A DNA stretch of 51,262 nucleotides from an uncultured Desulfovibrio sp. (GTDB lineage: Bacteria; Desulfobacterota; Desulfovibrionia; Desulfovibrionales; Desulfovibrionaceae), in the NCBI GenBank assembly GCA_964635595.1, contig CAZWOT010000001.1, forward strand, positions 1-51,262, in the 5' to 3' direction. This document shows, piece by piece, positions 35,664 to 42,567 of this stretch. Each line of letters opens with the position of its first letter. Within the stretch, counting starts at the first letter, position 1. A program made the translations under genes and the position numbers. The notes below the pieces were generated by a model. The model was not told the DNA's origin, did not search any database, and saw only the letters and a list, made by a program, of their open reading frames with translations.

Positions 35664-36215
35664 CCCTGTACGCTCCCAAAAACCTCTTGTTCCAGCCTGC
35701 ACCCCGGGACCGGCAAAAAAAGGCCGGCAAACCGGAGCATGCGGGAGTTTTTGCGCGAAGGCGCCCAAAAGCAAGGCGCATTTCGCAACGTGGAAGACTA
35801 AACTATCCTTGAAAGGGGCGCAAGCAAGCGAAAAAGACGGCTTTGCTCTCCCGCAGGGCCGACTTGAAGGAGACAGGAAAACCGGATCTGCATCGAAATC
35901 TGCGTCGTCCGCTCCCTGTCCCGAAGGGCAAGTTATGCCGTATATGGAGCCATTTGGGCAGGATTGCGGACGTTTGCGCAAATCGTGTCCTCCCCTTGTC
36001 AGGGGGCCTGATGTGGGGCATACTTTGTCCAAATTGGAACAAGCCCCTTTCGGGGCGTTTCCTTGTTGCAACATCATCCTGACGACAAACCCGGTGGAAA
36101 AGGTTCCGGGGCCCAGGGATTTTTTCGCCGGACCGCGAGAAGGGTCCGGCGGACAGGCCTGGGCCCCTTGAAGCCTTCGGGTCGGCGCGAGATCAATGCG
36201 CGAGGATTTGCTCAT

Positions 36216-39706: not shown

Positions 39707-39786
39707 CCTGGAAGACGCCGTGCCTGGAAGACGCCGTGCCTGGAAGACGCCGTGCCTGGAAGACGCCATGCCTAGAAGACGCCGTG
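39707..39786. repeat. 16-bp tandem repeat x5 (CCTGGAAGACGCCGTG) overlapping the mntP stop
   Basis: Units at 39707, 39723, 39739, 39755 (1 mismatch) and 39771 (contains the TAG). Confidence 0.95.
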
Positions 39787-40344
39787 CTCGTGGAGAATGA
39801 GGAGCGCAATGGCGAAGAGCGCACAGGAGCCGGCGTAGCCGCTCCAGTGGCGCACGGTTTCGATGCGGCCGATGCAGGATCCCACGATCATGCCGCCAAG
39901 GCTGATGAGGGCGCAGACAAGGCCTATCACCAGCGAGGGGATGATGATGGGGCGCGAGAGCAGGGCAAAGGAGAAGCCCACGGCGAGCGCGTCGATGCTG
40001 GTGGCTACGGCCAGGAGGATGATGGTCCATCCCTTTGTGGGGTCGGGGTGCTTGCCTTCGTCTTCGGCATCGCCTCTCCAGGTCTCGTACATGAGCTTGG
40101 CACCGACGAAGACAAGCAAAATACACGCTACCCAGTGGTCCCATTCTTCGATGAAACTTCGCACGCTCGTGCCCAGAAGCCACCCTGTCAGGGGCATGAT
40201 GGCCTGAAAGAGGCCAAAGGCAAAGGGCATGCGGAAGAATTGCCGCAGGGTGGGGCGTTTCAAGGCCACCCCCGTGGACACCGATACGGCAAGGGCGTCC
40301 ATGGAAAGGGCTATGGAGATGGCCACCAGTTCCAGAAAGGGCAT
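39772..40344 (-). CDS. mntP: Manganese efflux pump
   Basis: ALSMDALAVS, FQAIMP..GW, DHWVA, ATSIDALAVG. Confidence 0.95.
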   Translation of the reverse strand: MPFLELVAISIALSMDALAVSVSTGVALKRPTLRQFFRMPFAFGLFQAIMPLTGWLLGTSVRSFIEEWDHWVACILLVFVGAKLMYETWRGDAEDEGKHPDPTKGWTIILLAVATSIDALAVGFSFALLSRPIIIPSLVIGLVCALISLGGMIVGSCIGRIETVRHWSGYAGSCALFAIALLILHEHGVF

Positions 40345-40394: not shown

Positions 40395-40465
40395 CATGAC
40401 GGGGAGTACGGTCTGTGTCAAGCGACATTTGATCTGACCCGGTGATTAGACGAGAGACTTGACCC
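40395..40465 (+). promoter_or_regulatory. yybP-ykoY (Mn2+) riboswitch-like motif, antisense to mntP
   Basis: Plus strand reads GGGGAGTA...GTCAAGCGAC...CCGG...GAGACTTGACC, the ordered hallmarks of the family, ~50-120 bp upstream of mntP. Confidence 0.45.
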
Positions 40466-40622
40466 ACCCCTCTCCCGCGTCCCGCGGGGAAGCAACAATA
40501 GCGTTACAGCCGGGTGCTGACAAGTCCTTTGCGGCCATTTTTCCGGGGAAAAGCGGGGCATGTCGACCAATTTCGGCAAAAGAAAGCCTGTTTCAATGCC
40601 TTGGGAAAGACACCCCGACATG

Positions 40623-40808
40623 AAAAAAAGTGCCCCCTCGATGGGAGCACCTTTCCTGTACGTTGCAGCGCTTGTGGGCTGGAGCACCGCCGGGGCCTTT
40701 TGCCCGGCCTTGGGACCTTGCCTTTTCCGGAATCCGCTAGATGAACATGTCCGCCTCCAGTGTGTGATTTTGGGGTGGCTCCTTCGAGCCGGAGCTGATT
40801 GCCTTTGC
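40623..40808 (-). ncRNA. Candidate small RNA, copy 1
   Basis: Upstream GCAACCTTT-N13-CGTCT, internal hairpins, terminator GTGCTCCC-ATCGA-GGGGGCAC-T7. Confidence 0.55.
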
Positions 40809-40813
40809 CCATG

Positions 40814-40840
40814 AGACGTTTGGGAGGCCTGAAAGGTTGC
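40814..40840 (-). promoter_or_regulatory. ECF-sigma-type promoter, copy 1
   Basis: GCAAC-N17-CGTCT. The -35 and -10 motifs are kept between copies while spacer positions vary. Confidence 0.5.
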
Positions 40841-40946
40841 GGGGCATCGGAAATTTCCCGGAAAAGCAGGAGTCAAGCGGGACATGTCGCCCAGTTTCGG
40901 CAAAAGGAAGCCTGTTTCAAGGCCCCGGGAAAGAGGCCCAGACATG

Positions 40947-41129
40947 AAAAAGGGCCCCCTCGAGGGGAGCACCTTTCTGTACGTTGCAGCGCTTGTGGGC
41001 TGGAGCACCGCCGGGGCCTTTTGCCCGGCCTTGGGACCTTGCCTTTTCCGGAATCCGCTAGATGAACATGTCCGCCTCCAGTGTGTGATTTTGGGGTGGC
41101 TCCTTCGAGCCGGAGCTGATTTCCTTTGT
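40947..41129 (-). ncRNA. Candidate small RNA, copy 2
   Basis: Same core. Upstream GTAACCTTT-N13-CGTCT, weaker terminator GCTCCC-CTCGA-GGGGGC-CC-T5. Confidence 0.55.
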
Positions 41130-41134
41130 CCATG

Positions 41135-41161
41135 AGACGGTCGGGAGGCCGGAAAGGTTAC
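41135..41161 (-). promoter_or_regulatory. ECF-sigma-type promoter, copy 2
   Basis: GTAAC-N17-CGTCT. Confidence 0.5.
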
Positions 41162-41748
41162 GGGATTTCGGGAATCTTTTTCGACAACGTGCAAGAGGTG
41201 ACGATGCTGGCCTGTCGTCGCCCTGCTTCATCCGCTTCGCGCCCGACACGCGTGCAAGCCCTGGCCCTTGTGTCAATAAATTGGACAGTTTCGCATCACA
41301 CGGCGTTGCCTGTCGAAAAAGTATGCACCTTGGGGTCAGCCTGGCCCTTGCCCCAAACGCACAGACAAGAGTGCTGACCGTGATTTTCGCCCCTGCACAT
41401 GCTCCAGGAACGGGCATGGGGACGCTCGTCTTGCCGGCACGCGCAAGATTTGCGGAATCTTTCCGAAAAGAGGGGTGGACGCGGGTTTCGCGGGCTTGGC
41501 TCCATGGCCCCAGACCTGGCGACTTGCCCTGCACGCATCATGCATGCGCCTGCCTGGTCGAAGAACGCGTTCAAGTCCGTGGGATCAAGGACTTTCGGCA
41601 TGAAATATGCATGCTTCGCAAAGTGCGTACAAAGATTTTGACGGACCTGTCCCTCTTTGCTATCTGGCGAACTTCGCCAGCCCCATCAAGTTGGCACGGC
41701 CGCTTGAAAAAGCGCTTCTCGCGGCCTTCCCCCACACGAGGTTTGTTC

Positions 41749-42567
41749 ATGCGCTACTGGTACGTGTCCTCCCTGGCTCTCATGGCTTTTGTCCTGCAGG
41801 TGGTCCTGCTGGCCGAGGCCAGGGCAGCGGAGGATATCGCTCTTGCGAACACCCACACCCTGAACTCGAGCCGGCCGGCTGCCGGGACAGTTCCCGATGT
41901 TCAGGCCTCCCTGGCCGTCTCGACCGAAGAAGCCGCGAAACCTGACGCAGCCCCTGTCGCACAGGCGACCGAAGAATTGGCCGCAGATTCGGCCGCCGAT
42001 GCCGGCGCGGGGTCCGAGGCCCATGCTGCAGCCGACGACGCTGCGCCCAATGCCGAGTCTTCGGATGCCGCCACCGCGAACATGGACGTGGACGGCGCGA
42101 GCGTGGAGAACCCCTTCGCCCGCTTCGACATTCTCTCGCTCGTGGCCGGCAAATGGTCGCGCAAGGAGGCCGACGAGTCCGGGCAGACCTCGGCCGAGCC
42201 CGACTACAGCCGCTGGAGGTGCCTCTACCAGAGCATCGAGGAGCTGCCCGAGGGCCAGCGGCAGAAGGCAAGCGCCATCGTGACCGACTCCCTGCCCAAG
42301 CTCAACGAGATAGACACGAAGATTTCCGGCACGGTTGGCGAGCTGCAGGCGCTCACCTACAGCGACAACGCGGACCCGGAGGAGCTGCCGAGGCTCGGCC
42401 TCGATCTGCAGCGCCTGCGCGAGGAATTGCGGGCCACGCTGGCGGCCGTGAACATCCGCCTGCAAAAGGAGGCGGGCCTGCGCCTCTCCGAGCCCAGGGG
42501 CCGCGGCTGCGAGTCCATGCGCATCTACCCCGCAGGGGCCTTCAAGTCCGTGAACCTGCCCCAGTAG
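41749..42567 (+). CDS. Exported protein with a C-terminal ZraP/Spy/CpxP-like domain
   Basis: Signal peptide (..AEARA), A/D/E-rich linker, C-terminal LPEGQRQKA..I....ELQAL....ADPEEL..L..DLQRLREEL helical pattern. Confidence 0.65.
   Translation: MRYWYVSSLALMAFVLQVVLLAEARAAEDIALANTHTLNSSRPAAGTVPDVQASLAVSTEEAAKPDAAPVAQATEELAADSAADAGAGSEAHAAADDAAPNAESSDAATANMDVDGASVENPFARFDILSLVAGKWSRKEADESGQTSAEPDYSRWRCLYQSIEELPEGQRQKASAIVTDSLPKLNEIDTKISGTVGELQALTYSDNADPEELPRLGLDLQRLREELRATLAAVNIRLQKEAGLRLSEPRGRGCESMRIYPAGAFKSVNLPQ

What the first reader, a model, noticed from the sequence alone, without database searches (positions are those of the whole stretch)
40551..41177. Tandem pair of candidate ECF-sigma-dependent sRNA genes with an invariant 145-nt core
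Seen: two 321-bp-period units whose central 145 nt are identical while the flanks have diverged substantially. On the minus strand each unit reads (G/T)AAC-N17-CGTCT, then a ~185-nt body, then a GC hairpin and a T run. The body has hairpins (GGCUC-GAAG-GAGCC, GCCGGGC-AAAAG-GCCCCGGC, long-range CUGGAG/CUCCAG) and five GGA motifs in the shared core. Known: AAC...CGTC is a typical ECF-sigma promoter signature, and multi-GGA multi-copy sRNAs are how CsrA/RsmA is sequestered in other bacteria. Inference: diverged flanks around an invariant core imply selection or gene conversion on a functional RNA. I do not recognise it as 6S, SRP, tmRNA, RNase P or a known riboswitch, so it may be an undescribed stress-responsive sRNA family.
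Basis: partly seen in the sequence, partly recalled or inferred. Interest (0 to 1): 0.8.

Follow-up and report, generated by a model that had tools for sequence, protein, structure and literature searches.

The report
Borrowed sigma factor's new small RNAs
Three related non-coding units in this genome carry the same promoter motif as a peptide-export gene cluster whose sigma factor was likely acquired from unrelated bacteria, so they are likely small RNAs newly recruited into that system and are unlikely to be CsrA sponges.

Summary
The tandem pair is real: a 145-nt identical core with about 20% diverged flanks. A third, more diverged copy lies on contig C324. It keeps the promoter (26/29), a hairpin, a 24-nt motif (23/24; GGAGG-N5-AUG-UUC-AUC-UAG) and a terminator, at 54% identity elsewhere. 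The only ECF sigma gene found in this 75%-complete genome sits in an NHLM peptide-export cluster on C2. A matrix built from the three unit promoters ranks that cluster's two promoter sites 4th and joint 5th among all non-coding positions. Homologous ECFs, mostly from Kiritimatiellia and Lentisphaeria, have a near-identical motif beside them (52 of 80 loci). Only 2 of 111 genus genomes carry this ECF, and only this one has the units. The CsrA idea fails: no csrA here or in the 9 closest relatives, and the GGA count is at chance level. There is no Rfam hit, no coding signal and no predicted target above shuffles. Best reading: lineage-specific ECF-driven small RNAs, probably derived from a peptide gene's promoter and leader, acting as leader mimics. 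Transcription and mechanism are untested, and decayed peptide genes remain a real rival.

The parts
40551..40854 (-). Duplicated unit 1 (promoter, RNA body, terminator, about 75 nt downstream)
40875..41175 (-). Duplicated unit 2
40814..40840 (-). Unit 1 predicted ECF promoter: -35 GCAACC (40835-40840), 16-nt spacer, -10 CGTCT (40814-40818)
   Evidence: motif shared with the C2 ECF cluster
41135..41161 (-). Unit 2 predicted ECF promoter: -35 GTAACC (41156-41161), 16-nt spacer, -10 CGTCT (41135-41139)
40623..40807 (-). Predicted RNA 1, about 185 nt (start inferred from the -10 box, not measured)
   Evidence: inference
40947..41128 (-). Predicted RNA 2, about 182 nt (start inferred)
   Evidence: inference
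40656..40800 (.). 145-nt identical core, copy in unit 1
40977..41121 (.). 145-nt identical core, copy in unit 2
40777..40790 (-). 5-bp hairpin GGCUC/GAGCC; stem identical and loop changed in copy 3 (unit 2: 41098-41111)
40736..40759 (-). 24-nt conserved motif: GGAGG, 5 nt, AUG-UUC-AUC-UAG (three-codon frame 40737-40748)
   Evidence: 23 of 24 identical in copy 3
41057..41080 (-). Same motif in unit 2 (three-codon frame 41058-41069)
40671..40683 (-). UCCA-N5-CAAG module, single here and repeated in copy 3
40623..40654 (-). Predicted intrinsic terminator, unit 1
   Evidence: -20.4 kcal/mol; not listed by the simple scan
40947..40976 (-). Predicted intrinsic terminator, unit 2
   Evidence: -17.6 kcal/mol
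40495..40523 (-). Sigma-70-like promoter for mntP, downstream of the unit 1 terminator (context: the units are not the mntP leader)
39772..40344 (-). Flanking mntP (manganese efflux pump family), context only
41749..42567 (+). Flanking 272-aa protein without Pfam or NCBIfam hit, context only

Best explanation
The two tandem units and a third copy on contig C324 are likely small non-coding RNA genes, predicted to be transcribed by the ECF sigma factor of the NHLM peptide-export cluster on C2, and they likely act as mimics of the cluster's peptide-mRNA leader that would titrate an RNA-binding translational regulator. Shown: three copies; shared promoter boxes, hairpin, 24-nt motif and terminator; the same promoter motif at two sites in the ECF cluster and beside homologous ECFs; absence from the relatives searched. 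Inferred: the ECF and cluster came in horizontally from PVC-group bacteria; a copy of a promoter-plus-leader lost its peptide-coding part and was kept; one copy duplicated in tandem and was homogenised by gene conversion. Untested: transcription, and the decoy step. No binding protein is identified. I put 'ECF-driven RNA under selection' at about 0.7 and this specific decoy mechanism at about 0.35.
For: Copy 3 versus unit 2: promoter 26/29, hairpin 12/14, motif 23/24, remainder 59/109, with 33-nt and about 130-nt insertions. A matrix from the three unit promoters alone ranks C2:29258 4th and C2:38682 joint 5th among 723 kb of non-coding DNA on both strands. These sites precede a double-glycine-type precursor gene and the gene after the ECF. 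A TGTAACC-type promoter lies within -45..+130 of the ECF stop in 52 of 80 homologous loci versus 46 of 4000 random windows. The ECF is in 2 of 111 genus genomes. The units are in 1 of 111 and missing from 8 syntenic mntP regions. The hexamer ACAUGU of the motif also occurs in the precursor leader on C2 (just before its Shine-Dalgarno) and in the precursor leader of L130 (expected 0.04 and 0.06; noticed after the fact). Copy 3 repeats the UCCA..CAAG/CAAA module 5 times against 0.08 expected, while the window repeats the whole gene, as dosage selection would give. All candidate reading frames score -0.5 to -1.15 where 99% of real genes exceed 0.10.
Against: Conservation rests on two independent sequences in one genome. 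In six other genomes, 14 of 15 promoter sites lead to an ORF and the 15th runs off its contig; none looked like an ORF-less unit. The unit model finds nothing convincing in five genomes with the closest ECFs. No candidate binding protein: csrA and hfq were not found. Alignment of the units to the L130 leader is not significant once the promoter is removed (44-785 of 1000 shuffles score as well), and alignment to the C2 leader never was. The motif is not consistently single-stranded in predicted folds. Homologue promoters are one base shorter and end mostly in GTA. The genome is 75% complete, so another ECF could be missing.
Confidence: 0.35

Rival explanations
1. Decaying relics of orphan exported-peptide genes: promoter, ribosome-binding site, start codon and terminator survive from a former gene and may be transcribed, but have no RNA function.
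For: The layout (ECF promoter, short leader, SD-ATG, 100-250 nt, terminator) is that of orphan precursor genes in relatives (L227, L229, L230). The L130 leader holds an SD-ATG five-codon frame resembling the start of its orphan precursor. The same SD-ATG words start real genes in viral contigs.
Against: No double-glycine leader motif in any frame of any copy; only three such motifs exist in the genome, all on C2. No similarity to the precursor genes. A relic would not keep both promoter boxes, 23/24 motif bases including the stop, and a terminator while the rest falls to 54% with large insertions.
Confidence: 0.2
2. ECF-driven base-pairing sRNAs, the repressing arm of the regulon, with the 24-nt motif or the UCCA modules as seeds against host mRNAs.
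For: Short conserved block in a variable body with its own promoter and terminator, the usual anatomy (general knowledge). Copy 3 has 8 UCCA words, complementary to UGGA, against 1.4 expected. Tandem plus distal siblings are known for such sRNAs (PMC4211561, passages).
Against: Best pairing of the motif with 1920 start regions is -28.6 kcal/mol, inside the range of 20 shuffled seeds (-27.4 to -33.6). One perfect 11-nt complement and none of 12 nt in mRNA sense strands. hfq in 0 of 111 genus genomes. A quarter of the genome is missing, so a target could be unseen.
Confidence: 0.18
3. Translated minigene: ribosomes load on GGAGG-N5-AUG and make Met-Phe-Ile; loading protects the RNA or the tripeptide or peptidyl-tRNA is the signal.
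For: Ideal SD spacing, start and stop kept in all three copies, and conservation falls right after the stop. UAG is the commonest stop in this genome (1026 of about 1900).
Against: Third codon positions are invariant too, pointing to nucleotide-level constraint. Such SD-ATG mini-frames also occur by chance (13 others in non-coding DNA).
Confidence: 0.14
4. CsrA/RsmA-sequestering RNAs.
For: Five GGA in the core, multi-copy, own promoter and terminator; csrA is common in the genus (78 of 110).
Against: csrA not found in this genome or in the 9 closest relatives, four of them 95-99% complete. GGA count is near chance; only one ANGGA per core; copy 3 has three GGA in 350 nt and shares only one.
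Confidence: 0.04
5. Assembly artefact (collapsed core) or small mobile repeat with no function.
For: 145 nt is near common read and k-mer lengths (general knowledge). The units are an insertion relative to relatives (984 versus 324, 327 and 416 nt between a conserved motif and mntP). Copy 3 lies about 250 nt from a transposase-like fragment (family label recalled).
Against: The junction between units is unique sequence. Copy 3 is on another contig and independently keeps the functional blocks. Only three copies; no inverted repeat bounding the units among the 25 longest listed. A collapse would affect only the identity of the core.
Confidence: 0.06

Closest known systems
Alternative-sigma-dependent sRNAs: sigma28-dependent sRNAs of E. 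coli (PMC10578931, listing and start of abstract) and sigmaE-dependent MicA/RybB/VrrA (recalled; VrrA abstract start)
   Same: Small RNA genes inside the regulon of an alternative sigma factor; here too the sigma is tied to an export apparatus (NHLM exporter on C2; type III secretion operon in L165).
   Different: No sequence relation; no Hfq in the genus; no target found; the sigma is a recent, patchy acquisition; the conserved block reads as a ribosome-binding site rather than its complement.
Sibling sRNAs in tandem and distal copies: PrrF1/2, OmrA/B, AbcR1/2, csRNAs (PMC4211561, passages)
   Same: Two tandem copies plus a distal one, each with its own promoter and terminator, origin by duplication.
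   Different: Confined to one genome among those searched; no Rfam family; function unproven.
Csr/Rsm sponge RNAs (CsrB, RsmY/Z; PMC4211561, passage on GGA motifs)
   Same: Proposed decoy logic, an SD-like GGA motif, and amplification of a short module in an unstructured body.
   Different: No csrA in the subclade; GGA not repeated or conserved; the repeated module is UCCA..CAAG.
NHLP/Nif11-type precursor genes of NHLM export cassettes (PMC2887384, passages; TIGR03794, TIGR03796)
   Same: Same promoter and the same promoter-leader-SD-ATG layout as orphan precursors in relatives.
   Different: Stop at codon 4, no leader peptide motif in any frame. The paper's main text has no occurrence of 'sigma'.
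ECF231 (PMC7826278, supplement passage)
   Same: Predicted -35 TGTAACCTT.
   Different: Described with a transmembrane zinc-binding anti-sigma, HEAT repeats and adhesins; the C2 ECF's neighbours differ. Group assignment not tested; the supplement was cut when stored.

Membership tests
Csr/Rsm sponge RNA | Host encodes CsrA/RsmA | tested here: not met
   Not found in own genome (75% complete) or the 9 closest relatives; found in 78 of 110 other genus genomes
Csr/Rsm sponge RNA | Many conserved ANGGA motifs in loops or single strands | tested here: not met
   5 GGA versus 2.9 expected; one ANGGA per core; one GGA shared by all three copies
Csr/Rsm sponge RNA | Binds CsrA | not testable with these tools
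   needs a gel shift
ECF-dependent sRNA | Promoter matching a cognate ECF present in the genome | tested here: met
   (sequence match; recognition not shown biochemically)
ECF-dependent sRNA | Intrinsic terminator and no protein-coding frame | tested here: met
   only a three-codon frame
ECF-dependent sRNA | Discrete transcript that depends on the sigma factor | not testable with these tools
   needs RNA data
Base-pairing sRNA (MicA/RybB kind) | Conserved seed with significant mRNA complementarity | tested here: inconclusive
   no better than shuffles; genome incomplete
Base-pairing sRNA (MicA/RybB kind) | Hfq chaperone | tested here: not met
   0 of 111 genus genomes; ProQ and KhpA/B not tested
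NHLP precursor gene | Double-glycine leader peptide in an open frame | tested here: not met
MITE | Many dispersed copies with terminal inverted repeats and target duplication | tested here: not met
   3 copies; no bounding inverted repeat among those listed; target duplication not resolvable because relatives' flanks do not align
Any Rfam family (6S, SRP, tmRNA, riboswitches) | Covariance-model match | tested here: not met
   nothing near a gathering score; the true tmRNA lies elsewhere

The most novel reading that the evidence does not exclude
A horizontally acquired, export-linked ECF sigma factor has spawned its own RNA regulators inside one host lineage: copies of a secreted-peptide gene's promoter and leader were truncated to three codons, planted in core intergenic sites and amplified, and now work as ribosome-binding-site decoys for a regulator that is neither CsrA nor Hfq. 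This would be a snapshot of sRNA birth from mRNA leaders and would point to an unknown RNA-binding protein.
Probability: 0.25. Interest if true: 0.75.

Novelty: new variant of a known kind. Interest (0 to 1): 0.48.

Why it matters
If expressed, this is an undescribed sRNA family with a named cognate sigma factor, a defined 24-nt motif and a clear origin, in a genus with no Hfq. It makes two open questions testable in one small system: how sRNAs arise, and how an imported regulon wires into a new host. The work also exposes an ECF family with a strong promoter consensus that sits beside type III secretion genes in one locus checked and NHLM exporters in others. Limits: one genome, no expression data, no partner.

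Tried and rejected
Rfam: whole window at gathering score gave one tRNA; E-value scans of the pair and of copy 3 gave only noise. Homologue searches: BLAST of 300 family genomes gave only 20-45-nt hits; motif, promoter and model searches of 110 other genus genomes gave 0, 0 and 6 weak hits that by eye lie mostly in coding DNA; the JGI metagenome pattern scan gave one chance hit in an unrelated coding sequence; viral contigs gave 6 hits that are starts of unrelated genes; plasmids and phages gave none. Sequencing runs: none was listed, and no RNA holder was listed; this is no evidence either way. Earlier findings: nothing. Coding: 6 candidate frames are not in the protein collection; two homologue searches were empty; synonymous share was at most 8 of 35 and not favoured in the frame ending at the shared TAG (3 of 18 against copy 3). 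Pyrrolysine read-through: no CUA-anticodon tRNA among 39 found. The top predicted target near C2:28051 is only the antisense of another gene's ribosome-binding site. A spacer-to-SD helix proposed by the alignment fold is broken in copy 3 and needs an upstream start; set aside. An exact GTAACN-N16-SGT scan of homologous loci showed no enrichment, because their spacing is one base shorter. A riboswitch or attenuator for mntP was rejected: mntP has its own promoter below the terminator and relatives lack the units. One paper on Desulfovibrio promoters could not be opened.

Full report
Observation. The pair lies between mntP and a 272-aa gene without family hit. The exact repeat is 145 nt at period 321. 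All 35 difference events in 320 aligned columns fall outside it, which 0 of 200,000 permutations reproduce. Each unit reads on the minus strand GYAACC, 16 nt, CGTCT, about 185 nt, terminator. The RNAs are not unusually structured (z -1.5 and +0.27) and match no Rfam family. The host is probably a Desulfovibrio (my inference from gene content and relatives); its assembly is 2.76 Mb and 75% complete.

A third copy. BLAST and a profile find exactly one more copy, on contig C324 upstream of a radical SAM gene. Against unit 2 it keeps the promoter (26/29), the first hairpin (12/14, both changes in the loop), a 24-nt motif (23/24) and a terminator of changed sequence (-19.6 kcal/mol). The rest is 59/109 identical, with insertions of 33 and about 130 nt. 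The motif reads as a ribosome-binding site with a three-codon frame: GGAGG, five bases, AUG UUC AUC UAG. The long insertion repeats a module that is single in the window copies (UCCA..CAAG/CAAA five times against 0.08 expected). This block pattern is what selection on a non-coding transcript would leave, but it rests on two independent sequences. It also shows that most of the 145-nt core is free to vary, so the identity within the pair is more likely gene conversion; an assembly collapse cannot be excluded.

Not protein coding. Six candidate frames are absent from the protein collection, two have no homologue, none shows a synonymous excess, and all score below the lowest 1% of real genes in a dicodon model trained on my own gene calls.

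The sigma factor. The genome has four sigma-70-region matches, by eye RpoH-like, FliA-like, a broken fragment and one ECF at C2:38124-38648. The ECF lies in an NHLM export cluster (TIGR03794 and TIGR03796 above cut-off) with two double-glycine-type precursors and a leader-like gene after the ECF. The unit promoter recurs upstream of the first precursor and directly after the ECF gene. A matrix built from the three unit promoters alone ranks these sites 4th and joint 5th among 723 kb of non-coding DNA on both strands. Independently, homologous ECFs (the best 80 of 492 loci) carry TGTAACCTTT and a GT-containing -10 box near their stop in 52 of 80 loci, against 46 of 4000 random windows. The pattern was fitted after viewing the data, kin are not independent, and the spacing is one base shorter than here. 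Record titles are mostly Kiritimatiellia and Lentisphaeria. Only 2 of 111 genus genomes have this ECF, five close relatives have three sigma-70 matches each and no ECF-sized one by my reading, and family hits elsewhere are at most 39% identical. Horizontal acquisition is inferred from this patchiness; no tree was built. In L165 the ECF closes a type III secretion operon, so the family appears tied to export, not to general stress.

Distribution of the units. They are not found in 110 other genus genomes, 300 family genomes, five genomes with the closest ECFs, or the metagenome, viral, plasmid and phage sets searched. Eight relatives keep the mntP synteny without the units. In the three where a shared upstream motif could be placed with confidence, it lies 324-416 nt from mntP against 984 here. 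In six other genomes, 14 of 15 promoter sites lead to an ORF, several of them orphan precursors, and one runs off its contig. ORF-less units are therefore not a general feature of this ECF family as far as sampled.

Mechanism. CsrA sponging fails: csrA is in 78 of 110 other genus genomes but not here or in the nine whose flanking protein is closest, and the GGA count is near chance. Base pairing has no support from prediction, and hfq is in 0 of 111. The motif looks like the thing regulated, not its complement. Its ACAUGU hexamer recurs next to the SD of the C2 precursor and in the L130 precursor leader (expected 0.04 and 0.06), and L130's leader starts with nearly the same ten bases as unit 2. 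These were seen after the fact, and overall alignment to either leader is not significant. I commit to a leader-mimic decoy (0.35), against functionless relics (0.20), base pairing (0.18), a translated minigene (0.14), artefact or repeat (0.06) and CsrA (0.04). That the units are ECF-driven RNAs under selection by some mechanism is about 0.7.

Literature. Nine searches returned no description of this RNA or of an ECF tied to NHLM cassettes; the library lacks most subscription papers. Seen: PMC2887384 (passages: NHLP precursors beside the transporter cassette in Victivallis; 'sigma' absent from the main text); PMC7826278 (main-text passages and a search of one truncated supplement, so the ECF group may be described in the unseen part); PMC4211561 (passages); PMC11124144 (passages: 37 ncRNAs in 18 Rfam families in a relative); PMC10578931 (listing and abstract start).

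Verdict. A real, lineage-specific, three-copy candidate sRNA family with an identified likely sigma factor: a new variant of a known kind. Interest 0.48, limited by one genome and no expression data.

Noticed in passing
G000:C2:38761-39057 (L099) and loci L130-L209: The gene after the ECF carries a motif like D-x-L-G-x-L-x3-A-F-x-L-P-x-P-P in 38 of 80 loci. It is C-terminal in Kiritimatiellia-type loci and N-terminal, followed by a leader-like LxDDDL..LAAAG stretch, in G000, L130, L232 and L234. No Pfam hit. Candidate soluble anti-sigma removed by export, FlgM-style (analogy recalled), paired with a type III system in L165 and an NHLM exporter in others.
   Followed up: partly
G000:C2:29495-38648 (L099): NHLM export cassette with two double-glycine-type precursors of 93 and 98 aa, a periplasmic binding protein and the ECF; no modifying enzyme was seen among my gene calls there.
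   Followed up: partly
L130:4400-12256: The related NHLM/ECF cluster is followed by ORFs that look like VgrG and type VI sheath genes (labels by eye, not scanned).
   Followed up: no
genus-wide: csrA is missing from the whole sampled subclade around this genome (0 of 10) though a FliA-like sigma remains; hfq is in 0 of 111 genus genomes.
   Followed up: partly
window 40400-40460 (-): The mntP leader resembles a reverse-complemented yybP-ykoY manganese riboswitch (resemblance recalled); no Rfam match even at E up to 10.
   Followed up: partly
window 36079-36107 (-): GGAACC-N17-CGTCA upstream of a tatB-like gene; not among the top sites of the unit matrix.
   Followed up: partly
window 39707-39786: 16-nt tandem repeat overlapping the 3' end of mntP; such micro-repeats are common in this genome's intergenic DNA.
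   Followed up: no
window 41270-41330: A motif GTGCATAYTTTTT with a downstream GTGGATAA-like word is shared with relatives' mntP upstream regions; possible regulator site.
   Followed up: no
G000:C24:17785-18093: Truncated sigma-70 region-2 frame, apparently a broken primary-type sigma copy.
   Followed up: no
L028:1877-2227 (C324): AT-richer transposase-like fragment at the contig end, about 250 nt upstream of copy 3 (IS630-like label recalled).
   Followed up: no
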